Positions 18,618-56,805 are shown, counted from the first letter of the stretch. The stretch is DNA of 64,000 nucleotides from an uncultured Candidatus Saccharibacteria bacterium (GCA_964627095.1 CAZVKH010000001.1:86337-150336); one strand, 5' to 3'. Numbers and translations: made by a program. Notes: generated by a model not told the origin, from the sequence alone.

Positions 18618-18621
18618 AAAT

Positions 18622-37724: not shown

Positions 37725-37734
37725 AAAACTCTCC

Positions 37735-39597: not shown

Positions 39598-39599
39598 AA

Positions 39600-42587
39600 C
39601 TACTTACCGTCCCTCGACCAGTGCCATGGCTCAGCGGGGAGGTTTATATAACCAAAACCAGCAGCGTTGGCAGCCATCCACTTAAAGCATGGGCTGCTCC
39701 GACTCGAGATTATTGTTTTGCCACAAAGAAAGTCGTTGGCAAAACCCATTTGGTGATTTGAGTAGCCGGGTCGAGCGGTTTGTGGGCTACAACTTTTTGC
39801 TGGCGAGTTATAGATGTCCGGGCAGTGGTTGGCTATACGCGTGGAAACCTGCTGATCCATAGTTCGGAAACCACCACCACCGCCCAGTTCAACGCCAGCG
39901 GCCTTAGCAGCGTTGAGCATGTTATTAAAGTTATTGGCGTACTGCGAGTTAACCACCGAACCCTGAACTTTACACAACCTAATCTTGAACAACTTGCCGT
40001 TTTCGTAGCCATCGCCAACCCCGGCGTCTTCACCTACCGGGCAGGTTTGGCTAGAGGTGTCGCCAGCAATGATCTCGGTGGTTATGGTGCCCGCCGAAGC
40101 CGCGCTGGCATCAGCTGGCCCAGCTTTTGGTGTCAGATCCTCCTCGAGCATGGTCACTACATACGGATCGAGGCCTTTGTAGATGCGGTATCGGAAAGCC
40201 TTTTCGGTCGATAGTTTTTCGGCCGTGCAGCCACCCGGCACCTCGGTTACCTTTTTGGGGGTAAAACAGGACTCGACGGCGTTACCAAGGGCATCGTCCA
40301 GTTCTTTTTGAACCTTTTCTATACCACCCTGAGCAATTATCCAGGCCTCATTTTCTTCTAGCGAGTAGCTTGAGTCGGTATTAAGCTTATTAAGTTCTGC
40401 GCGTGAAAAGCCCCATTGTGGAACGCCGTGATGGTCTACGGGGGTAGCCGCCTGCGCCAGTTTAGGCGAACCAAGCAAGCGCGAGGGGTTTAGTATGCTA
40501 CCAACCGAACCGAACCAAGAGCCGACTTTCTGGCTGGCACTATTCACACTAGCCGGTGTGCTGCCAGCAGCCATGGAAACTAGCGAGTATGGGTTGCTGG
40601 TGGCAAAGTAACGTTCTGACCAAGGGCGACTTTGATTCTGCTCTAAAAGTGCCAACTGGGCATCTTCGTCGGTTTCCTGAATCTCTTGTTCGGTTAACGG
40701 GCGAGCCCGGAAACCCTGCCGCATGTTTTCTTTCTCAAGTGAATCGGCTCCAACAGTAGATTTAGAATAGAGGTTGGCACCCTCCTCGGTCCCAGAATAA
40801 GAGATGCCGCCGAGTAACTGAACCGAATAATCGAGGGCGAGTTGAACAATTGTAAAACCGGCTATCTGGACGGCCCCCTCTTTACTGACTATTCCACGAG
40901 CAGCTTGGCCAAAACCTTGCAACACCTTTGTGCCAAAGGTTCTAATTGCTGTTTGTTCGGCGGCTTCACCAGCGACAGCCGTCGAACCACCACTGGCTAC
41001 CGCCAACACGGCCTGACCAATAATTTCAGTACCAGCAATAGCTACCTGACCGGCTGGGTGCAACATAAAGCCACAGAATTTTTTATCAATTTCGTCACCT
41101 AAAGGAGTTGCCCCAGCCCCCGGTACCAGGCTCGAAGGACTGGTGACAAGATTTACAATATCAACTACTGTGGGGTCTATACTTGGCGACACCGAGGGTA
41201 CGTTGTAGTCGTCGGGCTCAGGATAGTCGGTGCGTCCATTCATTTGGCGTTGATATTCGGGTGAGGCGTCGGCTCCATCCCAGCGCCGGCCATCGGCTGC
41301 AACCACCTCCGCGGTCGACTCACCTCTTTTTATCTGGTCTCCCCCAGTCATGGCTTCGTGGGCCAGTCGCTGCGAGTTCTCCTGGTTTATTTCGGTTGCC
41401 TCATCAAGTTTTGTGGCTGCTTGATTAACCATGCAGGCCAGGGTTGAAGCAAGAACAACTGTAGATACGGTTGAGGTCGCCTTTGCGAGCTGGGCATCGC
41501 CAGCCGCCTTATTGACCGATTGAGTCACAATATCACCGGTTGCCCCCTCATCAATCGACTTAACGATGTTTTCGCGCGATTTCTTAATTGTATCTTCGGT
41601 AGTAGGGTCGGTAGCGCCAACCGAATCGGGCGCCGTATTATTAAACGATTGTTTGCGGTTTTCGGCATAGGCTTCTTTGGGGGTCTTCCCAAGAAACTCG
41701 CGGCCGCGTTGTGCCCAGCGAGTCATCTTAATGCCCGAAGTCTGGCGGATACCATCATAGACGCTGCTACGGACGTAACGCTTATCAATCCTCAGGGTAT
41801 TTTCCACCCCATACTTAACTTCACCAACAAACTCGGACTTAATCGTCATTCTTTCCCGAACCTTAAGCTTATTCTTTAATGAATTAGCATCAGCCCAACT
41901 TTCGAAGCCGTTACGCTTAGCAATTTCATCTAGGGATATGGTTTCACCATCGATGGTTACCCCTTTAAACTCATTAACACCGCGACCCGTCCAAGTTTTA
42001 CCTTTGTCCATATCAAGTTTAAGCTTATTTTCTGTGCCCAGGGCCTTTAGCTGTTTTTCGGGGTTAATGCGGCGCAGGCGCTCAGTTAATGTTCGCTTTT
42101 CTAGTACGGCCGAACCCTCGCCCTGTACAACAGCTGCGTCAAACAGGTTCTGTGAGGCGCGCTGACGTAATACTACCTGGAGACGAGCAAAGCCAGCCGT
42201 ACTTAGAGCTTGACCAAAGTGAACCGGTTTTAGACTGGCCAAGAAGACCAGCACAACAATTGCAATAATAAATACTCCGCCGCCACCAGCGCCGGCCGCT
42301 AGAACTTTCTTATTTCGCAAAAAACTAACTTTACCCGAAAAGGCCTTACTGCCACCGCCCGGGCCACCCGTAAACAAACTAGGGCCCTCGTTAGCTGGCT
42401 CTTGGGTGCCCTTTTGCTCATTGGCTTTTAGTTGCTGGGCATCGATCGCTGCCGTTTTCTTGTTTTCGTAAGGGCTTCTAGCGGCCTGAACCTCCATCTC
42501 TTTAGGGGTCTGGCCATCAGCGTCCGATATCGGCCTACGCTTAAGAGTGTCTGGCGAGCCGGTGTCTTGATCGTCGTAAACAGCCAT
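39600..42587 (-). CDS. 995-aa membrane protein with a C-terminal VanY/M15-type D-Ala-D-Ala (LD/DD) carboxypeptidase domain
   Basis: It has a disordered, charged N-terminus, a Gly-rich TM (VLAAGAGGGGVFIIAIVVLVFLASL) and a long central region with further hydrophobic stretches. The C-terminal motifs GGFRTMDQQ, PGYSNHQMGFANDF and EPWHW match the SxHxxGxAxD / EPWH signature of peptidase M15B. Confidence 0.7.
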   Translation of the reverse strand: MAVYDDQDTGSPDTLKRRPISDADGQTPKEMEVQAARSPYENKKTAAIDAQQLKANEQKGTQEPANEGPSLFTGGPGGGSKAFSGKVSFLRNKKVLAAGAGGGGVFIIAIVVLVFLASLKPVHFGQALSTAGFARLQVVLRQRASQNLFDAAVVQGEGSAVLEKRTLTERLRRINPEKQLKALGTENKLKLDMDKGKTWTGRGVNEFKGVTIDGETISLDEIAKRNGFESWADANSLKNKLKVRERMTIKSEFVGEVKYGVENTLRIDKRYVRSSVYDGIRQTSGIKMTRWAQRGREFLGKTPKEAYAENRKQSFNNTAPDSVGATDPTTEDTIKKSRENIVKSIDEGATGDIVTQSVNKAAGDAQLAKATSTVSTVVLASTLACMVNQAATKLDEATEINQENSQRLAHEAMTGGDQIKRGESTAEVVAADGRRWDGADASPEYQRQMNGRTDYPEPDDYNVPSVSPSIDPTVVDIVNLVTSPSSLVPGAGATPLGDEIDKKFCGFMLHPAGQVAIAGTEIIGQAVLAVASGGSTAVAGEAAEQTAIRTFGTKVLQGFGQAARGIVSKEGAVQIAGFTIVQLALDYSVQLLGGISYSGTEEGANLYSKSTVGADSLEKENMRQGFRARPLTEQEIQETDEDAQLALLEQNQSRPWSERYFATSNPYSLVSMAAGSTPASVNSASQKVGSWFGSVGSILNPSRLLGSPKLAQAATPVDHHGVPQWGFSRAELNKLNTDSSYSLEENEAWIIAQGGIEKVQKELDDALGNAVESCFTPKKVTEVPGGCTAEKLSTEKAFRYRIYKGLDPYVVTMLEEDLTPKAGPADASAASAGTITTEIIAGDTSSQTCPVGEDAGVGDGYENGKLFKIRLCKVQGSVVNSQYANNFNNMLNAAKAAGVELGGGGGFRTMDQQVSTRIANHCPDIYNSPAKSCSPQTARPGYSNHQMGFANDFLCGKTIISSRSSPCFKWMAANAAGFGYINLPAEPWHWSRDGK

Positions 42588-42600
42588 AGTTTGTGTTTAA

Positions 42601-44529
42601 TTATACTCCTGGGTATAAGCGGTTGGATAGGTCAATTGTGCCCGCTGGTTGTGAAAAATCACCTTGAGTGGGGTTTGCGATAGCCTGAACCTGTTCGGGG
42701 TTGGTAGTAATTAAGCCGGTTTCGGTAGGGCTGGCGACAATCTGGATGTGTACATGGTTTTGACCAGCAAAGAACAAACCCTGGCCGACTGGGAACTGGC
42801 TTAAGCGTTTCCGTTCTTCGGTGGTAAGCTTGAATACGTCTGTTAGCACATCAACCGCCGAAGACGATTGCTTGAGCAGGATCTGCATTGAGGCATTGGC
42901 AACAATTGCTCGGCCCATACGTGAGCCCATAAAGTCTTCGACATCCTGCGTAATAGTTGTGATACCTAGGTTATATTTGCGGGCGCGTTTGGCTAAGCTA
43001 AATAAGAAGTTGGCCGAGTCTTCATACTTCATAAGTTGCCAGGCTTCGTCCACTACTAAAATTCGTTTCTTTTGGTCGGCCTTAGTCTTATTCCAAATAT
43101 AGTTCAAGACAATATACATGGCCACCGGTCTTAGCTCGTCTTCAAGATCGCGAACGTTGAATACCACCAACGGGTTGTTAATATCAATGTTAGACTGTTG
43201 CGAAAAGATTCCGGCAAAAGTACCACTAGTATATTTGCGCAGGCGTTGCGCAAGTTGCGGACCAGTTCCACCCATATGCAATAAGGTGTCGTAGAGATCG
43301 TTAATCGTGGGGGCGGTGGCATTATGGGTTAAAGGATCGTTGGTGATCCCGGCTTTGGCGTATGTTTCGATGAGGGCAGCGTCAAGGTCGGCTTCTTCGA
43401 CCGGGCTTAAGGCTGGAGCCATCATTGAATTACCAACCGATTGAATTTGCGCCTGGGCGCCACCCATCATTAGTCGTAGTAAGCCATGCAAGGTAATTAA
43501 GTTGCTACGCAAGGCGTTATCGGCTTCTTCGGTATCAACCACCCGAGGTAGGTCGAATGGATTAATGCGTGTCGACGAGTTGAGACTAAGTCGAACATAG
43601 GCACCGCCAACGGCTTCGCACATACGCTGGTATTCATTCTCGGGGTCGATGATAAATACTTCGGTGCCAAACATCATGCTGCGCAAGGCCTCAAGCTTTA
43701 CGGTAAACGACTTACCGGCACCGGACTTAGCAAAGACCACGGCGTTGCCATTTTCTAGGCTAAAGCGGTCAAAAATAACTAAACCAGAGTTATGCATGTT
43801 AATCCCGTACAAAATGCCATTATCCTGGCTCAGGTCGGCTGACGTGAACGGAAAGCTAGTACTTAGAGCGCCGGTGCTCATATTGCGTCTAATCTGTAGC
43901 TGGTCGGTAAACTGCGGCACCGTACTATTTAGGCCGTGTTCCTGCTGTGATGATGCTGGCTTAGAGTAAACAAGCTGTTGCCCCAGGATCGACTCCACTT
44001 TGTGTGACACGAATTCTAGCTCATCAGTACTGTTGGCGTAGATTGTAAAATATAAACCAAAACGGAAGAAGCGCTCTTCGCCAACCTGCAACTTATCACG
44101 CATATCCTCGGCATCAATAATGGCGGCTTGTTTACCAGGGTCACGCACCCGACCCTTTTCGGAGTCGATCTGAATACCAGCCTCAAGTTGACTGACCTTC
44201 TTGCGCAGGTTTTCTAGAACTACTTGGCTTTCCACCGGGTAGATATACATCGACAGGTCGATGACTTCGTCAAGATTCACCATACTGCTTAGCCAGCCAG
44301 TATAGAGTTGGCGTGGATAGCCAAAAACGTAGTAGGTACGTGCAAAGCGAGTCCCCAGGCTAAAGAAGTTTGGCTTGAATTCTAATGAACTGGGCGCAAT
44401 AAAGTCGCGCAGAGCGGTAATACCCTTGCGAAAGGCGACTTCGACCTCCTGTTGTTCACGAATTTGCTGGGTCTGAGCCTGGATAACCGGGTCGGCCGGA
44501 GCGACGTCTTTTTTCTTTCCAAAAGCCAT
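42601..44529 (-). CDS. virB4: VirB4/TrbE/PrgJ-type type IV secretion ATPase (C-terminal two-thirds of a monoderm-type VirB4)
   Basis: Walker A is FAKSGAGKSFT and Walker B is ILVVDEAWQL. The upstream region DFIAPSSLEF..RTYYVFGYPRQLYTGWLSSM..DLSMYIYP is typical of monoderm VirB4 homologues. The ATG overlaps the upstream stop (TAATG). Confidence 0.85.
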   Translation of the reverse strand: MAFGKKKDVAPADPVIQAQTQQIREQQEVEVAFRKGITALRDFIAPSSLEFKPNFFSLGTRFARTYYVFGYPRQLYTGWLSSMVNLDEVIDLSMYIYPVESQVVLENLRKKVSQLEAGIQIDSEKGRVRDPGKQAAIIDAEDMRDKLQVGEERFFRFGLYFTIYANSTDELEFVSHKVESILGQQLVYSKPASSQQEHGLNSTVPQFTDQLQIRRNMSTGALSTSFPFTSADLSQDNGILYGINMHNSGLVIFDRFSLENGNAVVFAKSGAGKSFTVKLEALRSMMFGTEVFIIDPENEYQRMCEAVGGAYVRLSLNSSTRINPFDLPRVVDTEEADNALRSNLITLHGLLRLMMGGAQAQIQSVGNSMMAPALSPVEEADLDAALIETYAKAGITNDPLTHNATAPTINDLYDTLLHMGGTGPQLAQRLRKYTSGTFAGIFSQQSNIDINNPLVVFNVRDLEDELRPVAMYIVLNYIWNKTKADQKKRILVVDEAWQLMKYEDSANFLFSLAKRARKYNLGITTITQDVEDFMGSRMGRAIVANASMQILLKQSSSAVDVLTDVFKLTTEERKRLSQFPVGQGLFFAGQNHVHIQIVASPTETGLITTNPEQVQAIANPTQGDFSQPAGTIDLSNRLYPGV

Positions 44530-45428
44530 TACTGCAAATCCCTTTCTAAATGTGGTTGCGGTGCTTGCCCCTGCCCTTTGGTTACAACCGGCGCTTGGAG
44601 GTCGTCAAAGTTCTTGAGTTGCTGCCTGGTAGCGGTGTCTGGGTTGTAGGTGTCGTAGTAGAGTTCGATTAGTTCTTGGGTATCAAGTGGTAGGCCTTGC
44701 ACGCTACATTGCATCAGTCCGGCCAAGGTGGCCTGGACGCGGTTTCTGAGCTCGGTTTTGGCTTGCTCAAGTACCGATTCGTTAATTGTTACATGCTTCT
44801 CTTTTTTGCTGAACAGATCACCCAGACCAGTGAAAAAGTTTTTACTGTTCGTTATGGCTTTTTGGACATCAGCTACTGGGAAGTATGGGATTACTACGTA
44901 AAATTTTTTATCCATAATATTAGTCTGAACCGACAGATTGGATATAAATGTAACGTAATCTTCCATCAGCATGGCTAAAAGCATGTTGTCGTGTTCGGTG
45001 CGGATTTTATCAAGCCGAGCAATGTACGGTTCCAGGTCGACCTTTTGCGACCTGATAAATATCTGAATTGGAAAGTAGAGTGAGTTTAGGAAGGCCTGAT
45101 AGCCTGACTCAACGGCTTCTTGTTCGTTAAGGCTCATTAGATCAAAGTTAATTGACTTGAGCATAATAACCGAACGGAATGAACCGTCATTCATAATTAC
45201 GATGCCGTCACGAATTTCGGCAATCTGCAAGGTGTTCTGGGTGCTGTTTGGGTTACTCTTGGCGACGGCTAGAGGTGGTCCTAACGGGTTGGTTGGCGCT
45301 TGGTAGCCAGGCGCTCTGGGTGGCATGGTACCGACCTGGGGCATGCCAGCCGGTTGTTGGTATGGTGGTATGCCAGGATTTAAGCCCGGTGTCATACTTG
45401 GTTGATTATTCTGTAGTGATGGATCCAT
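44529..45428 (-). CDS. protein resembling the N-terminal domain of monoderm VirB4 ATPases, with a Pro/Gln-rich N-terminus
   Basis: After a roughly 60-aa P/Q/G-rich segment the sequence reads IAEIRDGIVIMNDGSFRSVIMLKSINFDLMSLNEQEAVESGYQAFLNSLYFPIQIFIRSQ. This matches my recollection of the start of Tn916-ORF16/TcpF-type VirB4 proteins (..dGi....y.k...f.dINY.l....e......f..fLN......Q...). A 1-nt overlap couples it to virB4. Confidence 0.5.
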   Translation of the reverse strand: MDPSLQNNQPSMTPGLNPGIPPYQQPAGMPQVGTMPPRAPGYQAPTNPLGPPLAVAKSNPNSTQNTLQIAEIRDGIVIMNDGSFRSVIMLKSINFDLMSLNEQEAVESGYQAFLNSLYFPIQIFIRSQKVDLEPYIARLDKIRTEHDNMLLAMLMEDYVTFISNLSVQTNIMDKKFYVVIPYFPVADVQKAITNSKNFFTGLGDLFSKKEKHVTINESVLEQAKTELRNRVQATLAGLMQCSVQGLPLDTQELIELYYDTYNPDTATRQQLKNFDDLQAPVVTKGQGQAPQPHLERDLQ

Positions 45429-45455
45429 ATATTTAGCCCGCCCCCTGGATTGAAA

Positions 45456-46355
45456 TTATCGGAGTGAAATGACTACTTCGTCATTATCCGAAAGCTCCGC
45501 TTTGTTAGCTTGGCGAGCAATCGTCGCAACCGATAAATCATCATTGTGTGCAAGCTCTAGTATAGCAGGGTTGGGGGCTGGCTTCATAGGGGTTGGGGGC
45601 ACTTGTTGTGGACTAGTCGCCAGAGTAGCAGCCGGCATGGCTGCTGGCGCTTGAACTTGTGCCACAGGCAACGCTGGTGCGGCCGCGGTCTGGTCTTGCA
45701 TGGTTCTAATCTTTTGCATGTGGTCCAGAACGGCATTGCGGTGTGCATCGTCGTTAGCCTGAACCAATTGAGCCATTTGAGCAGCCACCGGGTTATTGCG
45801 TGTATCAAGAATATCGTCATTAGAATTTACGCTGACATCCGCCACCGGCATACCTTGCATGCTGCCGGGTGTTATTAAGCGGTCGGACGCTTGGTCAATG
45901 TAAGTCGGGTTGCTGTACAGGTTTACATCAACACCCTTAATTACCCAGCCCCGCGTATCAATGGTCTGGGCAAGGGCTTGCAGGCGGCTCCTAACCTGGG
46001 TTTCGTCCAGGTTGTCGGTGCGGATTTGCTCAATTTTTTTGGGTGCTGTAACGGTTACAAGTTCGCGTATCCCAGTCTGATCCCAAATTCGGGTGCGTGG
46101 TTTCAGGAAGAATCTAATCTTGGCTAGTAGCCAAATCTCGGAACTTTGATCGTGGCCAAATGGAGCGGCCAGTATCCCAAACAAAAGCATCGGGAATAGT
46201 AAGGGGATAATCAAGAATGGCTGAACAGTAAATAAACGAAAGCTAATATAACCCAGCACAGCCACAATAATGGCATAAATAAACTGACGCAAACTCAATG
46301 GCCCGATCAGCTTATCCTCGGCTTCAATATCCTGTAAAACTCTGTAAGTAGCCAT
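45456..46355 (-). CDS. PrgI-family (VirB3-like) small T4SS membrane protein with a long Ala/Pro/Gln-rich C-terminal extension
   Basis: The N-terminal VLQDIEAEDKLIGPLSLRQFIYAIIVAVLGYISF plus a second TM is the PrgI-family hairpin. It sits immediately upstream of VirB4, as in enterococcal and clostridial systems. Confidence 0.65.
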   Translation of the reverse strand: MATYRVLQDIEAEDKLIGPLSLRQFIYAIIVAVLGYISFRLFTVQPFLIIPLLFPMLLFGILAAPFGHDQSSEIWLLAKIRFFLKPRTRIWDQTGIRELVTVTAPKKIEQIRTDNLDETQVRSRLQALAQTIDTRGWVIKGVDVNLYSNPTYIDQASDRLITPGSMQGMPVADVSVNSNDDILDTRNNPVAAQMAQLVQANDDAHRNAVLDHMQKIRTMQDQTAAAPALPVAQVQAPAAMPAATLATSPQQVPPTPMKPAPNPAILELAHNDDLSVATIARQANKAELSDNDEVVISLR

Positions 46356-46411
46356 TACCTAAATAGTAGATAGTTATGCGTCATTAGTAAAGAGCTCTCA
46401 AGCCAAGCGAC

Positions 46412-49012
46412 CTATTTAAGCCGCGGCCCATAGTACTCTGGGCCGGTGGATCTTGTGTCGGTAGAAGCAGGCAAATTCTGATAGACACCAGTTTTCTCGG
46501 CCAGCTTTCTGACTTCCTCGGCGACATGCGCCGAACCTGGGGCGTTGGTTTGGACTACACTTTGAGCAGTTCCTGGGGCGACACCTGGAGGAGGGGTCGT
46601 GCCAATAACGGCACCATCAGCATCAAGCTGTGGTTGACCAGCGCCACCACCGTATCGCGACACCCAGTTCTCGGCAACTGCGGTCGCCTTCCCTTGAGTT
46701 TCTGAATCTTTAACTTTGCCAGTGGTGGCGTCAACTTTGCTGGAGTCATCGTAGGCTTGGCCAATACGCTTAATTGTATGGGCGTTGAATTGTGATGCGG
46801 CATAGCTGGCCCGGTTTTCGTAAAGATCATCAACGAATGACTTGTTATCCATACTACCATCAAGTTTCATGTGCTTGAACTCGAGGTGTTTAGCTTGGTT
46901 TTCAAAGCCAGCCCCCTTTAAGGACCCAGCGGCCTGGCCATCACTCATACCCCAGCCGCCAGCCCCGGTGGCCAGTGTTTGGTAGCGATCGGCAATGCCC
47001 TGGACTTCTTCGTCTTTGGAAGCCTTACTCATTTCGTAAGACAGAGCGGCCTGTTGAGCATAGACGTCATTCTTCCAACGTCCTCTACCGGCGTCAACCG
47101 CCCCTTCGCTTACCCAAGCGCCACCCAAGGTCTTATATTCTCGAGCCCCCGACTTGCCATTTATACGCATCAAGTCGTTAGACATATGGCCGTCGGCATC
47201 TTTAGTTAAAGCCCCAGCGCGCTGTGCAGCCAACTTATTGACAGTCAAACCACGGATTTCTTCGTCGCGACCGGTGTTTATTTGGTCCTTTATTTCCTTG
47301 GCAACTGATGCCTGGCGGGCCGAGGCTTGAGCTTGAATGTTATAGCCACTAATCCCCTTGGAAGCACCTTTTAGGGCCATGCGTGATAGAGCGCTACGGT
47401 TGGCGTCGGAACTGGCGTCTTGCAATTGGCTTCCCCACTTGGCCCGGTTGGCAACAACCCGGCGGCCTTGGTGTTCGCGGTGGCGGGCGCCCGAGTTCTG
47501 ACGGAATTTGCCAATACCGGCCGACAGTCCCTTGGTGCGGTCATTAACCATGCCGCTCACGGCTCCAACGGCTCCACCAGCTAGTTTGAAGGCCGTTGGT
47601 ATCATAAAGTACGGTAAGAAGTAGGCGGCAAAGGCTATGAACTGTTCCAGTAGGCCGGCATCGGGTACGCTTGACACTACCCTAGAAAAGACTCGGCCGG
47701 TAGCAATAAAGGCCATGATAATTGGGAATGCCAACAAGGCTTTTAAGAAAAAGTCCCACCACATCTTCCAGAAACGCTGGGTATTTGGAAGTACCGAAGC
47801 CACAATCGCAATTGGCGCCAAGATTACTAAAAGAAGTATCAACATCTTTCGTATAACCAGTACAAAGAAGGCGACAAATACCGCCAGAAGTGCCGTTAGT
47901 CCAAACGACAGTAAACCAAGGAGCCCCAGTGAGCCAGCGCCAACCGCAAAGCCAGCCACTGCCAGCGTACTTGTGCCGCTATCGACTTTAGCTGCGTCTA
48001 TGCCACTAAAAGGCGCGGTAATTAGGGCACCAACGCCCTGGCCAAGATCGTTAGATACTTCAATAGCAAACTTGCAGACTGACCAAGACAAAGTGACGAA
48101 TATTATGGCTATGATCAGGCGTGGTAAAACTTTCCTAATTGTATAAGCATCAAACGCGTCAATCGAAAGTGCCTCCGAAAATATCATTATCAAGGCTATG
48201 ACAACTAAGAGTGTTAGGGCTATAAACCTAAAACTACTCCAGGCTGAAAAAAAGCCGTTTCCGCTATTGTTGTCGCCTAGGAATTTGTCGGTATCTATTG
48301 TCATCTCATTACTAATCGCTTTGTCCAGCAGGACTACGGCTTGGTTGGCGGTGGCGATTAAAGGACACATTATCCACGTCAGCGGGTTAGCTGTTGTTTC
48401 ACACTCTAAACCCTCGGTCGCATCCTTACCTTCTTCTGCTTTCTCTTTGGCGGCCGCCTCGTCTAGTACTTTCTGTTCTTCCTTTGCCACTGTGGTGTCA
48501 GAAAATATCCAGCCCCGTGAGGTGCCGGCCAAGTCCTTAAAGCTGTCAGATGAGGCGTTAGTCTTATCGCCCCCACCAATCCGGTAAGACATGCCCGTGA
48601 TAGGTATAGAAACACCGTTCGTTCCAGAGTATTTTTTTAAATCACTTTTTTTAACTTGTAAGTTAAATGATCGGCTTAGGTCGCCTTCTGTAAACGTTAC
48701 TGTACCTGAGTACTGAACAAAATTCTGGCCGTCATCTTCGGCCGTTTTGGCGAACATAATCCGCGATTCTTTTACGAATGCCGTGTCCTCGTTTTGGACA
48801 AAGAGAATATTATCATCATTTATATATATGAAGCCGTAACCGCCGCCAAATTGTTTAGGACTGGTGTACTGTTGTGGCGCGCTTTCCGCCAAAGCACTGG
48901 CTGGTAGCAGGCCCAACAATAAACCAATAACAGATATAAATAGAAAACTCGTAGCAAAGGCAATCCTTAAATACGGGCGATTCTTTTTTATTCTTGCAAA
49001 CTGTTTAAGCAT
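46412..49012 (-). CDS. VirB6/TrbL-like polytopic channel protein with a surface N-domain and a large cytoplasmic C-domain
   Basis: It has a signal or anchor sequence, a roughly 200-aa extracytoplasmic domain, about 7 TM helices (residues ~240-500) and a charged C-terminal region of about 370 aa. It is the first gene of an operon with PrgI/VirB4. The architecture call is moderate and was not confirmed by sequence search. Confidence 0.55.
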   Translation of the reverse strand: MLKQFARIKKNRPYLRIAFATSFLFISVIGLLLGLLPASALAESAPQQYTSPKQFGGGYGFIYINDDNILFVQNEDTAFVKESRIMFAKTAEDDGQNFVQYSGTVTFTEGDLSRSFNLQVKKSDLKKYSGTNGVSIPITGMSYRIGGGDKTNASSDSFKDLAGTSRGWIFSDTTVAKEEQKVLDEAAAKEKAEEGKDATEGLECETTANPLTWIMCPLIATANQAVVLLDKAISNEMTIDTDKFLGDNNSGNGFFSAWSSFRFIALTLLVVIALIMIFSEALSIDAFDAYTIRKVLPRLIIAIIFVTLSWSVCKFAIEVSNDLGQGVGALITAPFSGIDAAKVDSGTSTLAVAGFAVGAGSLGLLGLLSFGLTALLAVFVAFFVLVIRKMLILLLVILAPIAIVASVLPNTQRFWKMWWDFFLKALLAFPIIMAFIATGRVFSRVVSSVPDAGLLEQFIAFAAYFLPYFMIPTAFKLAGGAVGAVSGMVNDRTKGLSAGIGKFRQNSGARHREHQGRRVVANRAKWGSQLQDASSDANRSALSRMALKGASKGISGYNIQAQASARQASVAKEIKDQINTGRDEEIRGLTVNKLAAQRAGALTKDADGHMSNDLMRINGKSGAREYKTLGGAWVSEGAVDAGRGRWKNDVYAQQAALSYEMSKASKDEEVQGIADRYQTLATGAGGWGMSDGQAAGSLKGAGFENQAKHLEFKHMKLDGSMDNKSFVDDLYENRASYAASQFNAHTIKRIGQAYDDSSKVDATTGKVKDSETQGKATAVAENWVSRYGGGAGQPQLDADGAVIGTTPPPGVAPGTAQSVVQTNAPGSAHVAEEVRKLAEKTGVYQNLPASTDTRSTGPEYYGPRLK

Positions 49013-49152: not shown

Positions 49153-49704
49153 ATGAAAATGGATCAACAAACACAAAACCGACCCGATTTTAATTTTATT
49201 CTGAACCAACCTGGCCCAGATAATGCGAAACGAGCTAAGCGCTCGCCACTGGTTTTTGGGATTGCCGTGATACTAATTTTGGCAATCGTAGGCTTGGCGG
49301 TTATGGTGTTATTTGTACCTGCCAAAGGTGTTACTGATGTTGCCAGCACCGATACTAAGCAAGCCGATAGCGCTGTTTCTGGGGATGCCACCGATGCATA
49401 TTTTGAGGCATTGCGTAAAGATGACCCCGACACCGCTTATAATCAGCTATCTGATGAAGTTAAACAAACCAATACTAAAAGCGAATTTTTAGAGCGCACC
49501 ACCATCGTCTATGCCAATATCAAGCTAGATAGCTGCCAAAAGACGGCGGAAACGGGTAATTTAGAAAAAGGAAATCGAACCGCCGTATATGAATGTTCTA
49601 CAATAAAGGGGTTAACAGACGCCAAAATTACCCTATCGTTAGTCGACCAGTCTGGTGACGCAAGAATCGGTAGTATTAAAATAAGTAGCAAGGAAAAGGC
49701 ATGA
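49153..49704 (+). CDS. single-pass membrane protein, first gene of the pilin operon (unknown function)
   Basis: The TM is LVFGIAVILILAIVGLAVMVLFV, followed by a roughly 120-aa ectodomain with two Cys. An ATGA overlap with pilin paralogue 1 indicates translational coupling. Confidence 0.55.
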   Translation: MKMDQQTQNRPDFNFILNQPGPDNAKRAKRSPLVFGIAVILILAIVGLAVMVLFVPAKGVTDVASTDTKQADSAVSGDATDAYFEALRKDDPDTAYNQLSDEVKQTNTKSEFLERTTIVYANIKLDSCQKTAETGNLEKGNRTAVYECSTIKGLTDAKITLSLVDQSGDARIGSIKISSKEKA

Positions 49705-50360
49705 TTCAAAGATTCCGAAATGTAGGGATAGCCGGATTGTTTTTTGCTGTGCTCAGCTTTTCTTTGTTTTCACTTGGTAATACAGTTCATGCTCTTGCGC
49801 CGGGGTGTTACACCAAGGGGCAGGCGCAAAACTCTCAAGGCACAACGGGAAATGCGACACCTGGTTGGGCAACCAAACCCTGCCAAGATTTGGTAACGGT
49901 TTTCCCTGATTTTACTGTGGCCCCAGAAGACTGCTACTTTACTTGGGAGACCGAACTGGGTCCCTCAACTCCTGTTAAATACAAATGCGAAGAACCGCCA
50001 TCTTTTAGCGCAGCGGTCGTAAAGCCAAAAGATGGGAAACCAGGTAATGGACCAGAGGGTCCCCAAGACATCGAAGCCGACCCGACATTTAACAGCACTC
50101 AGTGTAACGGTAAAGAAGTTACTAGTAGCGACAACTGCATTATCGAAAATATTAATGTGGCTATAAATATTCTGTCTGGTAGCATCGGGCTGCTTGTAAT
50201 AATTGTAATTATTATTGCCGGTATTCAATACACAACGGCTGCTGGTGATCCGCAAAGAATTGGCAAAGCCAAGAACCGAATACGTAATGCTATCATTGCT
50301 TTAGTGGCCTATATGTTCTTGTATGGGTTCTTGCAATGGGTCATACCAGGAGGTCTCTAA
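49701..50360 (+). CDS. T4SS pilin-like protein, paralogue 1 (VirB2/TrbC-type C-terminal hairpin, ~150-aa six-Cys ectodomain)
   Basis: The signal peptide ends in VHA-LA. The C-terminal module is LSGSIGLLVIIVIIIAGIQYTTAAGDPQRIGKAKNRIRNAIIALVAYMFLYGFLQWV, shared with the five following genes. Confidence 0.7.
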   Translation: MIQRFRNVGIAGLFFAVLSFSLFSLGNTVHALAPGCYTKGQAQNSQGTTGNATPGWATKPCQDLVTVFPDFTVAPEDCYFTWETELGPSTPVKYKCEEPPSFSAAVVKPKDGKPGNGPEGPQDIEADPTFNSTQCNGKEVTSSDNCIIENINVAINILSGSIGLLVIIVIIIAGIQYTTAAGDPQRIGKAKNRIRNAIIALVAYMFLYGFLQWVIPGGL

Positions 50361-50762
50361 ATGCTACTAAGTTTATTAACACGAATCGCAGCCGAAAAAG
50401 CGGCGCTTGATTGTGCGGCCGACAAATCCAAAACATTCTTTGGTCTACCGGTTTGGTACAAGTACCTCAAGATGGAAACAGTCAGTAAAGAAGGACTATC
50501 GGTCTGCAAAGTTGACATCGATTTTGTCCAAAACCCATCCGATGTCTGGGCGATCTTACTAGGTATTATCGATATTCTATTAAGAGTCGGTGGTATCGCG
50601 GCAGTTATTTATGTAATGTATGGCGGCTTTTTGTATATGACCAGCCAAGGTGAGCCCGACCGAACAAAACAAGCCAAGGAAACAATAATTGGCTCAATCA
50701 TAGGTTTGGTTATTGTTTTGCTGGCCGCCCAGATAGTGTCATTTATTGGGAATCGATTGTAA
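50361..50762 (+). CDS. T4SS pilin-like protein, paralogue 2
   Basis: The C-terminal module is VGGIAAVIYVMYGGFLYMTSQGEPDRTKQAKETIIGSIIGLVIVLLAAQIVSFI. There is no clear signal peptide. It has two Cys. Confidence 0.7.
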   Translation: MLLSLLTRIAAEKAALDCAADKSKTFFGLPVWYKYLKMETVSKEGLSVCKVDIDFVQNPSDVWAILLGIIDILLRVGGIAAVIYVMYGGFLYMTSQGEPDRTKQAKETIIGSIIGLVIVLLAAQIVSFIGNRL

Positions 50763-50774
50763 ACTGGAGAAAGC

Positions 50775-51074
50775 ATGCTACAACACCTCAGACAAATTGC
50801 CACCGAAATAGATCTTTCGCCGTTGCCCAATGGACCCGGCGGGACTAAAAGCGAGGATGCGATTCCAGTAATCGTTGGTGTTGTATTTGCTGCCCTCGGA
50901 GCAATATCGGTGTTGATGATTGTCATCGGCGGATTTCAGTATGTTATCTCGCAGGGTGACCCGCAACGTGTTGCCAAAGCCAAGGACACAATTATGTACG
51001 CCGTAATTGGTTTGGTGATATCGCTGCTTTCTTATGCCATAGTTGCATTTGTTATTACGGAGATAACCAAGTAA
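50775..51074 (+). CDS. T4SS pilin-like protein, paralogue 3 (minimal, 99 aa)
   Basis: The C-terminal module is LGAISVLMIVIGGFQYVISQGDPQRVAKAKDTIMYAVIGLVISLLSYAIVAFV. It has no Cys and no signal peptide. Confidence 0.7.
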   Translation: MLQHLRQIATEIDLSPLPNGPGGTKSEDAIPVIVGVVFAALGAISVLMIVIGGFQYVISQGDPQRVAKAKDTIMYAVIGLVISLLSYAIVAFVITEITK

Positions 51075-51460
51075 TGCGCAAATATCTTGCAGGCATCCTT
51101 GCCATTGTCTTGTCGGTCCTAGTGTTTACCGCCTTAACACCGGTTTATGCCGAGAATTTAACCCAACAGGCCTGCCAGGCGACCGGGGCAGAAGGCAGCT
51201 CAAGTGCTTGCGTTAACCAGACCGATGACCCCATTACCGGACCAAAAGGTATAATTGGCAGAGCCATCGATCTTATAAGTATTCTAGTTGGTGTCGCTTC
51301 GGTAATTGTTATTATGGTAGCCGGATTTAACTTTATAACCTCGCAAGGCGAACCGGCTGCCTTAAGTAAGGCCAAAAACAGTTTGATTTTTGCAGTTATT
51401 GGTATAGTTATTGTCGTAATGGCGCAAATTATCGCTGGTTTTGTTGTTAAACAAGTGTAA
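51074..51460 (+). CDS. T4SS pilin-like protein, paralogue 4
   Basis: The signal peptide ends in VYA-EN, followed by a C-x11-C loop. The C-terminal module is VGVASVIVIMVAGFNFITSQGEPAALSKAKNSLIFAVIGIVIVVMAQIIAGFV. A TAATG overlap couples it to paralogue 3. Confidence 0.7.
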   Translation: MRKYLAGILAIVLSVLVFTALTPVYAENLTQQACQATGAEGSSSACVNQTDDPITGPKGIIGRAIDLISILVGVASVIVIMVAGFNFITSQGEPAALSKAKNSLIFAVIGIVIVVMAQIIAGFVVKQV

Positions 51461-51485
51461 AAAGAAACTAAAAAGGAAATCTTAT

Positions 51486-51869
51486 ATGAAAAAACTACTA
51501 ACCCTAACACTCATAGCGCTGAGTTTGGTTATGGTAGCCGGTCCAGCTGTTGTGTCGGCCGAGTCCGCCAAAGACTCGGTTTGTGCTGGAATTGGGCTGA
51601 CCGGTGGTTCAGACAACTGCGACCCACCGGCCAATGGACCTACTGTCCAAAGTGCTTTGCAGGCTGCTATAAGAATTCTTAGCTATCTTATTGGATTTGC
51701 AGCCGTGGTGATGTTGATGATCGCTGGATTCAAATTCATAACAGCCGGTGGTGAGCCGGCAAAGATTGCTAGTGCCCGTGACACCATTCTGTACTCTGTC
51801 ATTGGCCTGGTGGTGGCCATGCTGGCGCAATTAATAGTTAACTTTGTGCTGACAAATCCTAAGCTTTAG
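51486..51869 (+). CDS. T4SS pilin-like protein, paralogue 5
   Basis: The start is set at the ATG at 51486 (MKKLLTL, after AAAGGAAA). The track start at 51441 overlaps paralogue 4. The signal peptide ends in VSA-ES, followed by a C-x11-C loop. The module is IGFAAVVMLMIAGFKFITAGGEPAKIASARDTILYSVIGLVVAMLAQLIVNFV. Confidence 0.7.
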   Translation: MKKLLTLTLIALSLVMVAGPAVVSAESAKDSVCAGIGLTGGSDNCDPPANGPTVQSALQAAIRILSYLIGFAAVVMLMIAGFKFITAGGEPAKIASARDTILYSVIGLVVAMLAQLIVNFVLTNPKL

Positions 51870-51945
51870 CGCTATTTGGACTTGCTCAACACAACAGAGA
51901 TGTGATATAACCAAAACAGTTATATAAGAAAGGTAAAAAGAATTC

Positions 51946-52365
51946 ATGATCAAAAAAATCAAACTTGCGATAGTCGCTTTCGTTTCACTAAGCCTGTTCG
52001 CTGCTCCACTTATGGTGCCAGCTGCAGTTTATGCCGCCGACGAGATAGAACAAGGTCTTTGTTCCGGTGCTAACCTAAACGCTTCATCAGATGGAAGTTG
52101 TGACGTTACAGCCGAAGAAGCTCAAGGAACTGTTAACAACACCATAACATTCGTTATTAACACCTTCTCGATAGTTGTCGGTGTTGCCGCGGTTATTATG
52201 ATTATTGTTGGTGGTTTCCGCTACATCATCTCTGGTGGTGACTCCGGTAACGTTCAGTCAGCCAAGAACACAATCCTATTTGCGGTTGTCGGTCTTGTGG
52301 TCGTTGCACTATCTCAGTTCATCGTCAAGTTCGTACTTTCCAAAGTATCTTCAGCTACTACCTAA
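51946..52365 (+). CDS. T4SS pilin-like protein, paralogue 6
   Basis: The signal peptide ends in VYA-AD, followed by a C-x12-C loop. The module is VGVAAVIMIIVGGFRYIISGGDSGNVQSAKNTILFAVVGLVVVALSQFIVKFV. It has its own 76-nt upstream spacer and is followed by a strong terminator. Confidence 0.7.
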   Translation: MIKKIKLAIVAFVSLSLFAAPLMVPAAVYAADEIEQGLCSGANLNASSDGSCDVTAEEAQGTVNNTITFVINTFSIVVGVAAVIMIIVGGFRYIISGGDSGNVQSAKNTILFAVVGLVVVALSQFIVKFVLSKVSSATT

Positions 52366-53794: not shown

Positions 53795-53886
<92 letters not shown>

Positions 53887-53903
53887 AAGGGAAACAATTT
53901 AAC

Positions 53904-53996
53904 TGGCGGAGGAGGAGGGATTCGAACCCTCGCTGGAACTTGCGCCCCACTAACGATTTAGCAAACCGTCCCCTTCAGCCACTTGGGTACTCCTCC
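53904..53996 (-). tRNA. tRNA-Ser (anticodon GCT), CCA encoded
   Basis: The reverse complement is GGAGGAGTACCCAAGTGGCTGAAGGGGACGGTTTGCTAAATCGTTAGTGGGGCGCAAGTTCCAGCGAGGGTTCGAATCCCTCCTCCTCCGCCA. The anticodon loop is TTGCTAA and the variable arm is long. Confidence 0.9.
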
Positions 53997-54089
53997 GTAC
54001 GTGAACATTGTGGTTTTACACAGGCTGAACAGGGAGATTATATCAGAGAGAGCGTTGCTTTTACAGTGGCAGACGAATACAATACGCTT

Positions 54090-56728: not shown

Positions 56729-56805
56729 TGGTGTACCCGACAGGATTCGAACCTACGACCTTCGGCTCCGCAAGCCGACGCTCTATCCAGCTGAGCTACG
56801 GGTAC
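56729..56805 (-). tRNA. tRNA-Arg (anticodon GCG), CCA encoded
   Basis: The reverse complement is GTACCCGTAGCTCAGCTGGATAGAGCGTCGGCTTGCGGAGCCGAAGGTCGTAGGTTCGAATCCTGTCGGGTACACCA. The D-arm is near-identical to E. coli tRNA-Arg(ACG). The anticodon stem TCGGC/GCCGA encloses the loop TTGCGGA, which puts G at position 34. Confidence 0.85.

What the first reader, a model, noticed from the sequence alone, without database searches (positions are those of the whole stretch)
51074..52365. Conserved C-x11/12-C loop just before TM1 in pilin paralogues 4-6
After signal-peptide cleavage (VYA-EN, VSA-ES, VYA-AD) each mature protein has exactly two cysteines at near-identical spacing. Paralogue 4 reads ACQATGAEGSSSACVN (11 residues between). 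Paralogue 5 reads VCAGIGLTGGSDNCDP (11 between). Paralogue 6 reads LCSGANLNASSDGSCDV (12 between). The intervening residues are Gly/Ser/Asn/Ala-rich and differ between copies.

This looks like a disulfide-bounded variable surface loop on a conserved scaffold, analogous in logic to the D-region loop of type IV pili. I am not aware of it being a described feature of VirB2-type pilins.
Basis: seen in the sequence. Interest (0 to 1): 0.55.

Follow-up and report, generated by a model that had tools for sequence, protein, structure and literature searches.

The report
Conserved cysteine-pair loop in Saccharibacterial secretion-system pilins
Three small pilus-subunit genes next to a type IV secretion system in a Saccharibacteria (CPR) genome each carry a pair of cysteines that is kept across 80 related species and almost certainly forms a disulfide-closed outer loop, a real but modest and apparently unremarked detail of an already known gene family.

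Summary
Window 49701-52365 is the known six-gene array of VirB2-like pilins (Pfam PF18895) beside a monoderm-type type IV secretion system (T4SS). Paralogues 4-6 have exactly two Cys, with 11, 11 and 12 residues between them, after a signal peptide and before the two-helix hairpin.

- **Conservation:** I fetched 80 Saccharibacteria species with a Cys-free probe. Of 260 complete p4-6-like pilins, 242 have two ectodomain Cys, 8 have four, 10 have none and none has one. Chance predicts about 10 with two and 63 with one.
- **Loop variability:** Spacing is 4-26 residues (median 11). Loop entropy is about 3-3.6 bits against 1.4 in the hairpin.
- **Oxidative folding:** All 11 Cys-bearing exported ectodomains in the window have even Cys counts; cytoplasmic proteins split 15 even to 13 odd. 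VKOR is common in Saccharibacteria, and MdbA-like oxidoreductases are CPR-enriched (PMC6744442). Neither gene is in the window.
- **Caveats:** The disulfide and its surface exposure are inferred. Against a close relative dN/dS is 0.01-0.14, so the loops differ between lineages but are under purifying selection, unlike hypervariable type IV pilus (T4P) D-regions. p1 and p2 also carry Cys pairs.

None of the papers on these arrays that I read mentions the cysteines.

The parts
51074..51460 (+). Pilin paralogue 4 (128 aa): signal peptide, Cys loop, two-helix hairpin
   Evidence: PF18895 at 36 bits against a cut-off of 26.6. Same gene call on an independent contig.
51074..51151 (+). p4 predicted Sec signal peptide (residues 1-26, ...TPVYA|EN)
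   Evidence: Read from the sequence. The cleavage site is inferred from the -3/-1 rule and not tested.
51173..51211 (+). p4 Cys34-x11-Cys46 loop (CQATGAEGSSSAC)
   Evidence: In a close relative the loop is CNATGADASSVC, with 10 residues between.
51486..51869 (+). Pilin paralogue 5 (127 aa)
   Evidence: PF18895 at 48.9 bits. Gene call of 127 aa on L001. AF2 gives the hairpin as helices 29-61 and 66-98 of the mature protein with pLDDT above 80.
51486..51560 (+). p5 predicted signal peptide (residues 1-25, ...AVVSA|ES)
   Evidence: Read from the sequence. Cleavage is inferred.
51582..51620 (+). p5 Cys33-x11-Cys45 loop (CAGIGLTGGSDNC)
   Evidence: In a 112-sequence alignment, C8, G10 and C20 of mature p5 are at least 90% conserved. 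The AF2 confidence here is low, pLDDT about 50.
51946..52365 (+). Pilin paralogue 6 (139 aa)
   Evidence: PF18895 at 42.2 bits. It belongs to the largest orthogroup in the 80 species, with 172 members.
51946..52035 (+). p6 predicted signal peptide (residues 1-30, ...AAVYA|AD)
   Evidence: Read from the sequence. Cleavage is inferred.
52060..52101 (+). p6 Cys39-x12-Cys52 loop (CSGANLNASSDGSC)
   Evidence: The loop is identical in a relative that has diverged to dS about 0.9.
49701..50360 (+). Pilin paralogue 1 (219 aa) with a large six-Cys ectodomain; C135-x10-C146 (50103-50138) sits in the same position before TM1
   Evidence: p1-like orthologues carry 2-16 ectodomain Cys, an even number in 64 of 66; the two odd counts are artefacts.
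50361..50762 (+). Pilin paralogue 2 (133 aa): Cys18 and Cys49 flank the conserved TFFGLPVWYKYL motif; no classical signal peptide
   Evidence: PF18895 at 46 bits and PF04956 TrbC/VirB2 at 29.3 bits, above its cut-off of 27.9..
50775..51074 (+). Pilin paralogue 3 (99 aa): no Cys, no signal peptide
   Evidence: 62 of 72 p3-like orthologues also lack Cys.
49153..49704 (+). Membrane-anchored NTF2-like protein upstream of the array, with 2 Cys in the ectodomain
   Evidence: MecA_N at E=7e-6..
36198..49012 (-). Divergently transcribed monoderm-type T4SS: VirB6/TrbL_3-like (46412-49012), PrgI/VirB3 (45456-46355), TraC-like (44529-45428), VirB4 ATPase (42601-44529), VanY-domain protein (39600-42587), lysozyme+M23 hydrolase (37735-39597) and an unknown exported protein (36198-37793)
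   Evidence: The exported members have 10, 8 and 6 ectodomain Cys in short-range pairs.

Best explanation
p4, p5 and p6 are VirB2-like (PF18895) pilin subunits of the Saccharibacterial T4SS.

Proposed sequence of events:
1. Each is exported by a Sec signal peptide. This leaves an N-terminal tail of about 30-35 residues outside the cell, a two-helix hairpin in the membrane and a short loop in the cytoplasm.
2. On the outer face of the membrane, the lineage's MdbA-like oxidoreductase / VKOR module oxidises the two Cys.
3. The resulting intramolecular disulfide closes a Gly/Ser/Ala/Thr/Asn-rich loop, 11-12 residues here and 4-26 across the group.
4. If the pilins polymerise like F or T pilins, whose N-termini face outward, these stapled loops decorate the outside of the filament. 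They would give each paralogue and lineage its own surface on an invariant helical scaffold.
5. The disulfide's job would be to rigidify and protect this otherwise flexible exposed segment.

What is shown:
- the motif;
- its conservation;
- strict Cys parity and paired loss;
- loop variability against scaffold conservation;
- extracytoplasmic placement according to the signal peptide;
- an even-Cys signature in the organism's other exported proteins;
- VKOR in the lineage.

What is inferred:
- the disulfide itself, and that it is intra- rather than intermolecular;
- pilus assembly;
- outward orientation;
- any role in host contact.
For: - **Family and context:** All six ORFs are PF18895. They sit beside VirB4, VirB6-like, PrgI and hydrolase genes. 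This is the arrangement reported as an essential six-pilin array in Southlakia epibionticum (PMC10633639; PMC12857230; PMC12102498).
- **Unbiased comparative sample:** 80 species were fetched with the Cys-free C-terminal domain. They hold 477 pilin ORFs, and 51 of 80 loci have exactly six, in the conserved order p1-p2-p3-(p4/5/6-like x3).
- **Cys counts in p4-6-like ectodomains:** 242 with two, 8 with four, 10 with none and none with one, among 260 complete proteins. Chance predicts about 10 with two and 63 with one.
- **Parity across all 470 pilins:** Ectodomain counts are 0, 2, 4, 6, 8, 10, 12 or 16. All 19 apparent odd counts trace to a Cys in the signal peptide, a mis-called internal start or a contig end.
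- **Hairpin:** 433 of 470 hairpins have no Cys.
- **Entropy:** About 3.0-3.6 bits around the Cys against a mean of 1.42 bits in the hairpin. Only Gly at Cys1+2 is semi-conserved, at 58%.
- **Window-level oxidative-folding signature:** 11 of 11 Cys-containing exported ectodomains are even, against 15 even and 13 odd for cytoplasmic proteins (Fisher p=0.007).
- **Cytoplasmic T4SS parts:** VirB4 and the TraC-like protein mostly carry 0-1 Cys.
- **Oxidoreductase:** VKOR (PF07884, E=2e-35) lies in a Saccharibacteria chromosome about 8 kb from its pilin array. It has 1,285 homologues at E<=1e-10, several named as Saccharimonadales or Saccharibacteria proteins. MdbA-like oxidoreductase plus adjacent VKOR are CPR-enriched (PMC6744442). 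VKOR is a single-copy core gene in oral TM7 (PMC9040727).
- **Not a lipobox:** Residues -3 to -1 of Cys1 are variable, and Cys1 lies about 8 residues past the AxA site.
Against: - There is no direct chemical evidence for a disulfide.
- No thioredoxin-fold, DsbB or VKOR gene is in the 64-kb window, and the rest of this genome could not be read.
- Saccharibacteria are reported to lack a respiratory chain (PMC10633639), so the electron acceptor for VKOR is unclear.
- Foldseek and the PDB sequence search gave no significant pilin match. hhalign against six classical VirB2/TrbC proteins gave only 5% probability. The outward N-terminus therefore rests on Pfam-level homology and analogy.
- No pilus has yet been seen for these systems; the review says 'potential to elaborate' one.
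- Ten orthologues do without the Cys pair.
Confidence: 0.65

Rival explanations
1. The two Cys form intermolecular disulfides that covalently cross-link neighbouring pilin subunits, or link pilins to p1 or p2, giving a chemically stapled filament rather than a closed loop in each subunit.
For: - Even Cys parity and paired loss are equally expected for head-to-tail intermolecular bonds.
- Several paralogues in one array all carry pairs.
- The distance from Cys2 to the hairpin is fairly constrained, mostly 17-24 residues.
Against: - Cys1-Cys2 spacing varies from 4 to 26 with Gly-rich content. That suits a loop closed on itself but not a fixed inter-subunit geometry.
- Four-Cys variants look like two consecutive short loops, e.g. 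L007 C-x9-C ... C-x8-C.
- p1 ectodomains and the other exported proteins show short-range Cys pairs typical of intramolecular bonds.
Confidence: 0.12
2. The Cys-loop segment acts only before or during assembly. It could be a stabiliser of the membrane pool, a recognition element for the T4SS, or part of a pro-region that is trimmed. In that case it is not a surface feature of a mature fibre, or no fibre is made at all.
For: - Classical VirB2/TrbC pilins are further processed by trimming and cyclisation (established knowledge).
- Classical VirB2/TrbC pilins have much shorter mature N-termini without Cys pairs.
- No pilus has been observed for Patescibacterial T4SS.
- The loop of p6 is under strong purifying selection, dN/dS 0.01. 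That fits a conserved partner rather than a free surface.
Against: - The segment is long-lived in evolution in 80 of 80 species, and its Cys are kept while its sequence drifts. This is typical of a structural staple on an exposed segment.
- No second processing motif is conserved after Cys2; entropy there is about 3 bits.
Confidence: 0.1
3. The Cys stay reduced and serve another purpose, such as metal or cofactor binding, redox sensing or thiol-based attachment to host molecules.
For: - Many Saccharibacteria live in low-oxygen habitats and lack a respiratory chain (PMC10633639).
- No Dsb-like gene lies in the window.
Against: - Two thiols with spacing varying between 4 and 26 make a poor conserved metal site.
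- A free-thiol function would not forbid single-Cys variants, yet none exists among 260.
- The same strict even parity holds for up to 16 Cys in p1-like proteins and for the unrelated exported enzymes in the window.
- The lineage carries VKOR and MdbA-like genes.
Confidence: 0.08
4. The pattern is a chance or compositional coincidence among three recent paralogues.
For: The three proteins are paralogues (32-38% identical), so a shared ancestral pair could persist briefly without selection.
Against: - The pair persists across 80 species with saturated synonymous divergence, while surrounding residues have randomised.
- Chance predicts about 10 of 265 with two Cys; 236-242 are observed. Chance predicts about 63 with one; none is observed.
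Confidence: 0.01

Closest known systems
Patescibacterial VirB2-like pilin arrays (Pfam PF18895 T4SS_pilin); essential six-pilin array of Southlakia epibionticum ML1 and the 'Sec-secreted array' of TM7x (PMC10633639, PMC12102498, PMC12857230)
   Same: - Same Pfam family, with all six ORFs above threshold.
- Same six-gene tandem array next to a monoderm MPF-FATA-like T4SS without a recognisable relaxase in the neighbourhood.
- Same low identity between paralogues, 21-32% to p1.
- The array order is conserved in 80 Saccharibacteria species.
   Different: Nothing differs about the genes themselves; the window is an ordinary member. What is new is the description. The three papers read do not mention cysteines or disulfides in these pilins. 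The Pfam model covers only the hairpin, so it does not include the loop.
Classical conjugative pilins VirB2 / TrbC / TraA (Pfam PF04956; T-pilus, RP4, F-pilus)
   Same: - Signal peptide followed by a two-helix hydrophobic hairpin with a short polar connecting loop.
- Encoded within a T4SS cluster with VirB3, VirB4 and VirB6 homologues.
- p2 passes the PF04956 gathering score, and p4 and p5 hit it weakly.
   Different: - Six MPF-T VirB2/TrbC proteins taken from plasmids have 0-1 Cys after the signal peptide and only about 15 residues before the first helix.
- They are matured by cyclisation or acetylation (established knowledge).
- Profile-profile similarity is weak, hhalign probability 5%.
- There was no tblastn hit in 72,556 plasmids.
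- Their host systems are diderm.
D-region disulfide loop of type IV pilins (PilA/PilE), and the BdbDC-dependent disulfide of the Bacillus subtilis competence pseudopilin ComGC
   Same: By logic only: a pilus subunit with a conserved helical core and a disulfide-closed, sequence-variable, exposed loop. The loop's formation depends on an extracytoplasmic thiol oxidase (established knowledge).
   Different: - Unrelated fold and machinery: class III signal peptide, a single N-terminal helix plus a globular head, and a loop at the C-terminus.
- Here the loop is N-terminal to a helical hairpin.
- The signal peptide is Sec type I-like.
- Between close relatives the loop is under purifying selection, not the diversifying selection typical of D-regions.
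MdbA-VKOR oxidative folding of pilins in Actinobacteria (Actinomyces oris FimA), with CPR-enriched MdbA-like and VKOR families (PMC6744442)
   Same: A monoderm lineage uses a membrane-anchored thioredoxin-like oxidase reoxidised by VKOR to fold exported pilus subunits. VKOR is confirmed in Saccharibacteria here.
   Different: - Those substrates are sortase-assembled or type IV pilins, not VirB2-like pilins. The CPR paper proposed T4P pilins as the clients.
- The enzyme-substrate link for the T4SS pilins is my inference.
Tandem VirB2/TrwL paralogue arrays of Bartonella (Trw) and Anaplasma
   Same: Several divergent copies of the T4SS pilin gene lie in tandem and are proposed to diversify the pilus surface (cited in PMC12102498).
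   Different: - Those are recent, variable amplifications in diderm pathogens.
- Here six distinct orthogroups are stably inherited across the order, and three of them share the Cys loop.

Membership tests
Pfam PF18895 T4SS_pilin (Patescibacterial VirB2-like pilins) | HMM score above the curated gathering threshold (26.6 bits) | tested here: met
   p1 38.7, p2 46.0, p3 43.8, p4 36.0, p5 48.9 and p6 42.2 bits. The precomputed annotation on an independent contig agrees.
Pfam PF18895 T4SS_pilin (Patescibacterial VirB2-like pilins) | Tandem array of divergent copies adjacent to VirB4, VirB6 and VirB3(PrgI) genes of a monoderm-type T4SS | tested here: met
   Six copies at 49701-52365. The T4SS genes lie at 36198-49012 on the other strand. 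The same array is present in 80 Saccharibacteria species, and 51 of 80 have exactly six copies.
TrbC/VirB2 conjugative pilins (Pfam PF04956) | HMM score above the gathering threshold (27.9 bits) | tested here: inconclusive
   p2 scores 29.3 bits (met). p4 scores 18.9 and p5 20.0 bits (below). p1, p3 and p6 give no hit. Many homologues carry both PF18895 and PF04956 in precomputed annotation.
TrbC/VirB2 conjugative pilins (Pfam PF04956) | Detectable homology to bona fide VirB2/TrbC proteins of conjugative plasmids | tested here: inconclusive
   hhalign of the 112-sequence family alignment against six MPF-T VirB2/TrbC proteins gave probability 5% and E=0.0075, although TM1-loop-TM2 aligned in register. 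tblastn of p2 against all plasmids found no match.
TrbC/VirB2 conjugative pilins (Pfam PF04956) | Architecture: cleavable leader plus two hydrophobic helices joined by a short polar loop | tested here: met
   Hydropathy finds a signal peptide and two TM segments in p4-p6. AF2 predicts helices 29-61 and 66-98 with pLDDT above 80.
TrbC/VirB2 conjugative pilins (Pfam PF04956) | Structural match to solved conjugative pilin subunits | tested here: inconclusive
   Foldseek against PDB gave no hit with E<=0.001, only generic helical hairpins. The profile search of PDB sequences gave only chance profilin hits.
TrbC/VirB2 conjugative pilins (Pfam PF04956) | Polymerises into an extracellular T4SS-dependent pilus with the N-terminus outside | not testable with these tools
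   No pilus has yet been reported for Patescibacterial T4SS; the review speaks of a 'potential to elaborate conjugative pili'.
Type IV pilin D-region disulfide loop | Class III (prepilin peptidase) signal with a conserved N-terminal hydrophobic helix, and a C-terminal Cys pair in a globular domain | tested here: not met
   The signal peptides are Sec type I-like with AxA-type sites. The Cys pair is N-terminal to a two-helix hairpin, and there is no globular domain. This is an analogy only.
Bacterial lipoproteins (lipobox Cys) | L-[AS]-[GA]-C lipobox at the end of the signal-peptide h-region | tested here: not met
   Cys1 lies about 8 residues after the AxA site. Positions -3 to -1 are variable across 236 orthologues.
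Disulfide-bonded exported proteins (Cys-parity criterion of Dutton et al. 2008, from my own knowledge) | Even number of Cys in the exported part, no unpaired Cys, and loss of both Cys together | tested here: met
   Counts are 242 with two, 8 with four, 10 with none and none with one among 260 complete p4-6-like pilins. All 19 odd counts among 470 pilins are artefacts. In the window, exported proteins are 11 of 11 even against 15 even and 13 odd for cytoplasmic ones.
Disulfide-bonded exported proteins (Cys-parity criterion of Dutton et al. 2008, from my own knowledge) | An extracytoplasmic thiol-oxidising system is present in the organism | tested here: inconclusive
   None is in the window, and the rest of the genome is not available. 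In the lineage, VKOR is present in a Saccharibacteria chromosome and has 1,285 homologues. MdbA-like and VKOR families are CPR-enriched, and VKOR is core in oral TM7.

The most novel reading that the evidence does not exclude
The disulfide-stapled N-terminal loops are the host-contact surface of an essential, Gram-positive-type T4SS pilus. Their oxidation by MdbA/VKOR would need a quinone that Saccharibacteria may not be able to make, since they are reported to lack a respiratory chain. Maturation of the pilins would then be coupled to quinone scavenged from the actinobacterial host, a redox checkpoint tying pilus assembly to host attachment. A weaker variant is that the Cys pairs cross-link subunits, which would make this the first covalently stapled VirB2-type filament.
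Probability: 0.08. Interest if true: 0.75.

Novelty: new variant of a known kind. Interest (0 to 1): 0.4.

Why it matters
The T4SS pilin array is one of the few gene sets shown to be essential for the epibiotic growth of a cultivated Saccharibacterium, and nobody knows what the pilins do.

- **A testable handle.** A strictly conserved Cys pair points to the part of the protein that faces outward. It predicts dependence on the CPR-enriched MdbA/VKOR oxidative-folding module, which had so far been linked only to type IV pili.
- **A simple genetic test.** Saccharibacteria are now naturally transformable, so Cys-to-Ser alleles can be made.
- **A structural distinction.** The pair separates these pilins from classical VirB2/TrbC/TraA pilins, which lack such a loop.

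Even so, this is an added detail on a known family, not a new system.

Tried and rejected
- **Locus search with alignment A2.** I replaced it with a closer Cys-free alignment, A3.
- **Representative-library search for a Cys-unbiased sample.** The top 150 hits were all multi-domain 'polypilins' because scores sum over domains. They served only as side evidence.
- **Cys-parity test over all ORFs of the 80 loci.** My first crude TM classifier put 772 of 1,261 ORFs in 'multi-TM' and included spurious ORFs. Its result (22 even, 20 odd) is not meaningful. I replaced it with manual classification of the window's genes.
- **Searches that found nothing useful:**
  - The PDB sequence search gave only chance profilin hits.
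  - Foldseek against PDB gave no significant match.
  - tblastn of p2 against plasmids gave no match.
  - hhalign against classical VirB2 gave only 5% probability.
- **Literature searches.** Combinations of Saccharibacteria or Patescibacteria with VirB2, pilin, disulfide or Dsb returned nothing relevant.
- **Dsb-like genes.** A CxxC scan of the window and a tblastn with VKOR found none in the window.
- **Lipoprotein (lipobox) reading of Cys1.** Rejected on position and sequence.
- **Diversifying selection on the loops.** Rejected for the one close pair available, with dN/dS of 0.01-0.14.
Full report
**What is in the window**

The interval 49701-52365 (+) holds six consecutive small ORFs. All six score above threshold for Pfam PF18895 'T4SS_pilin', and p2 also passes PF04956 TrbC/VirB2.

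On the opposite strand, 36198-49012 encodes a monoderm-type type IV secretion system:
- a VirB6/TrbL_3-like protein of 866 aa;
- PrgI/VirB3;
- a TraC-like protein;
- a VirB4 ATPase;
- a VanY-domain protein;
- a lysozyme+M23 cell-wall hydrolase.

An identical stretch occurs on a metagenome contig, with the same gene calls. The 80 best related genome loci are all from Saccharibacteria/Saccharimonadales metagenome-assembled genomes.

This is the arrangement already published as the essential six-pilin array of Southlakia epibionticum, and as VirB2-like arrays of 2-11 genes in Patescibacteria (PMC10633639; PMC12102498; PMC12857230). The genes themselves are therefore an ordinary member of a known kind.

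**Checking the observation**

Translation confirms the finding exactly:

| Paralogue | Cys positions | Residues between | Signal-peptidase motif |
|---|---|---|---|
| p4 | C34, C46 | 11 | VYA\|EN |
| p5 | C33, C45 | 11 | VSA\|ES |
| p6 | C39, C52 | 12 | VYA\|AD |

No other Cys occurs in any of the three proteins.

Two additions to the finding:
- p1 has six Cys, the last two (C135-x10-C146) in the same position before TM1.
- p2 has C18 and C49 flanking a conserved TFFGLPVWYKYL motif. Only p3 has no Cys.

**Is the pair conserved?**

To avoid selecting for the cysteines, I searched one genome per species with an alignment of the C-terminal hairpin only. I then pulled every ORF in the 80 returned loci that matched a hairpin-only HMM.

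This gave 477 pilin ORFs. Fifty-one of the 80 loci have exactly six, in the order p1-p2-p3 followed by three p4/p5/p6-like genes.

Among the 265 p4-6-like proteins, 236 had exactly two Cys between signal peptide and hairpin. A further 15 had none, 8 had four and 6 had three; none had one.
- All six 'three' cases have the extra Cys inside the signal peptide.
- Five 'none' cases are truncated ORFs.

Corrected, the counts are 242 with two, 8 with four, 10 with none and none with an odd number, out of 260.

With the local Cys frequency of 0.625%, chance predicts about 10 with two and about 63 with one.

Over all 470 pilins the ectodomain counts are 0, 2, 4, 6, 8, 10, 12 or 16. Every one of the 19 apparent odd counts was traced to a signal-peptide Cys, a mis-called internal start or a contig end. 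The hairpin itself has no Cys in 433 of 470.

Even parity together with loss of both Cys at once is the classic sequence signature of a disulfide.

**Variable loop on a conserved scaffold**

- Spacing ranges from 4 to 26 residues, with median 11 and interquartile range 9-13.
- Column entropy around the two Cys is 3.0-3.6 bits. Only Gly at Cys1+2 is semi-conserved, at 58%.
- Hairpin columns average 1.42 bits.
- The loops are Gly 19%, Ser 14%, Ala 12.5%, Thr 11% and Asn 9%.

The variability is between lineages, however, and does not reflect rapid diversification. Against a close relative (L084) synonymous sites are near saturation (dS about 1-1.5), yet dN/dS stays low:

| Region | dN/dS |
|---|---|
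| Hairpins | 0.01-0.04 |
| p4 N-terminal half | 0.14 |
| p5 N-terminal half | 0.13 |
| p6 N-terminal half | 0.01 |

The p6 loop is identical in the two genomes.

**Topology**

The loop lies between a Sec-type signal peptide and the first hydrophobic helix, so it should be outside the cytoplasm.

The mature N-terminal segment is net acidic (mean K+R 2.2, D+E 4.4). The inter-helix loop is slightly basic (1.6 against 1.2).

AF2 on mature p5 with 112 homologues gives a confident helical hairpin, with helices 29-61 and 66-98 at pLDDT above 80. The loop region reaches only about 50.

In solved F and T pili the pilin N-terminus lies on the outside of the filament. That is established knowledge, not something I tested. 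Surface exposure of the loop is therefore an inference by analogy.

**Can this organism make disulfides?**

No thioredoxin-fold, DsbB or VKOR gene is in the window.

The window's own proteins nevertheless show the exported-protein parity signature. Ectodomain Cys counts are 2, 10, 6, 8, 10 and 2 for six non-pilin exported or anchored proteins, and 6, 2, 0, 2, 2 and 2 for the pilins.
- That is 11 of 11 non-zero counts even, against 15 even and 13 odd for cytoplasmic proteins. The binomial p is 0.001 and Fisher p is 0.007.
- Cytoplasmic T4SS components in the 80 loci mostly carry 0-1 Cys.

At lineage level:
- One fetched locus contains a VKOR gene (PF07884, E=2e-35), from a complete Saccharibacteria chromosome.
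- That VKOR has 1,285 homologues at E<=1e-10, several named 'vitamin K epoxide reductase family protein [Candidatus Saccharimonadales / Saccharibacteria]'.
- Méheust et al. reported an MdbA-like thiol-disulfide oxidoreductase family as CPR-enriched, with VKOR often adjacent. They proposed type IV pilins as its clients (PMC6744442).
- VKOR is a single-copy core gene in oral TM7 strains (PMC9040727).

**Comparison with known pilins**

- **Classical VirB2/TrbC.** Six classical proteins retrieved from conjugative plasmids have only about 15 residues between leader and first helix, and 0-1 Cys there.
- **Homology to them.** It is visible only at Pfam level. hhalign gives 5% probability, tblastn finds nothing, and the PDB sequence search and Foldseek give nothing specific.
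- **Type IV pilin D-region and ComGC.** These disulfides are analogies in logic only. The defining features (class III signal, C-terminal loop in a globular head) are not met.
- **Lipobox.** Cys1 is not a lipobox Cys.

**Literature**

None of the three papers that describe these arrays mentions cysteines or disulfides in the pilins. Searches combining VirB2 or pilin with disulfide and Saccharibacteria or Patescibacteria found nothing relevant.

Within what I could search, the feature is undescribed. Subscription-only literature was not covered.

**Verdict**

The best explanation (confidence about 0.65) is an intramolecular disulfide, made by the lineage's MdbA/VKOR-type system. It would staple a lineage-specific Gly/Ser-rich loop on the extracytoplasmic, probably outward-facing, N-terminal segment of three of the six T4SS pilins.

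The rivals are intermolecular cross-links, a role only before assembly, and reduced thiols with another function. The parity data alone do not exclude the first two. A chance coincidence is excluded by the counts above.

It is a new descriptive variant within a known family and of moderate interest. It gives a concrete experimental handle on essential pilins of unknown function.

Noticed in passing
Proteins P0013-P0162; no window coordinates: The 150 best-scoring representatives of the hairpin profile are 'polypilins'. These are single predicted proteins with 2-17 tandem two-helix pilin hairpins (e.g. P0019, 1775 aa) and a signal peptide only at the N-terminus. Their first domain often carries a C-x6/7-C pair. 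Linkers have 0 Cys (252), 2 (82) or 4 (19), and rarely odd numbers (9). The family has 77,387 members at E<=1e-3 in the 50%-clustered library. I did not resolve whether these are real fusions or stop-codon read-through or alternative-code artefacts.
   Followed up: partly
window 49701-52365 (all six pilins): All six give sub-threshold hits (27-39 bits against a cut-off of 40) to NCBIfam NF045849 'Mbov_0395 family pilin-like conjugal transfer protein' of Mycoplasma ICEs. This suggests that a VirB2-like hairpin protein also exists in another monoderm conjugation system, although Gram-positive T4SSs are usually said to lack pilins.
   Followed up: no
L083 4864-6624 (= OY970322.1 region; VKOR also at L064 18466-19089, minus strand): The Saccharibacterial VKOR gene sits directly next to a dihydroorotate dehydrogenase (DHO_dh) gene. 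If that enzyme is the quinone-dependent class, these would be two quinone-linked enzymes side by side in a lineage reported to lack a respiratory chain. That raises the question of where the quinone comes from.
   Followed up: no
window 18090-20778, 36198-42587, 49153-49704: Every non-pilin exported or membrane-anchored protein in the window has an even number of ectodomain Cys (2, 10, 6, 8, 10, 2). Many are in short-range pairs, e.g. 774/787, 922/933 and 955/967 in the VanY-domain protein, and 148/161, 349/355 and 422/434 in the 531-aa protein. This points to general oxidative folding of secreted proteins in this organism.
   Followed up: partly
window 50361-50762 (p2) and 50775-51074 (p3): p2 and p3 have no classical signal peptide. 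The p2 N-terminus MLLSLLTRIAAEKAALDC is conserved in the close relative L084. p2 nevertheless keeps two Cys flanking a conserved TFFGLPxWYKYL motif, whereas some orthologues (e.g. P0009) have a clear signal peptide. How the roughly 60-residue N-tail of p2 would cross the membrane is unexplained.
   Followed up: partly
window 49701-50360 (p1) and p1-like ORFs in L003-L082: The first pilin of the array always carries a much larger ectodomain, about 120-150 residues, with 2-16 Cys (an even number in 64 of 66, the two exceptions being artefacts). This makes it a candidate tip or adhesin-type minor pilin. Its fold was not examined.
   Followed up: no
window 53800-53996 and 56732-56971: Four tRNA genes lie here. 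The long ORF listed at 53808-54641 overlaps two of them at its 5' end, so its true start must be further downstream.
   Followed up: no
window 51074-51460 and 51946-52365: The ectodomains of p4 and p6 contain N-x-S/T sequons in or beside the Cys loop: ENLT and VNQT in p4, NLNAS and NNT in p6. The loops are Ser/Thr/Asn-rich overall, so glycosylation of this segment is conceivable. This was not tested.
   Followed up: no
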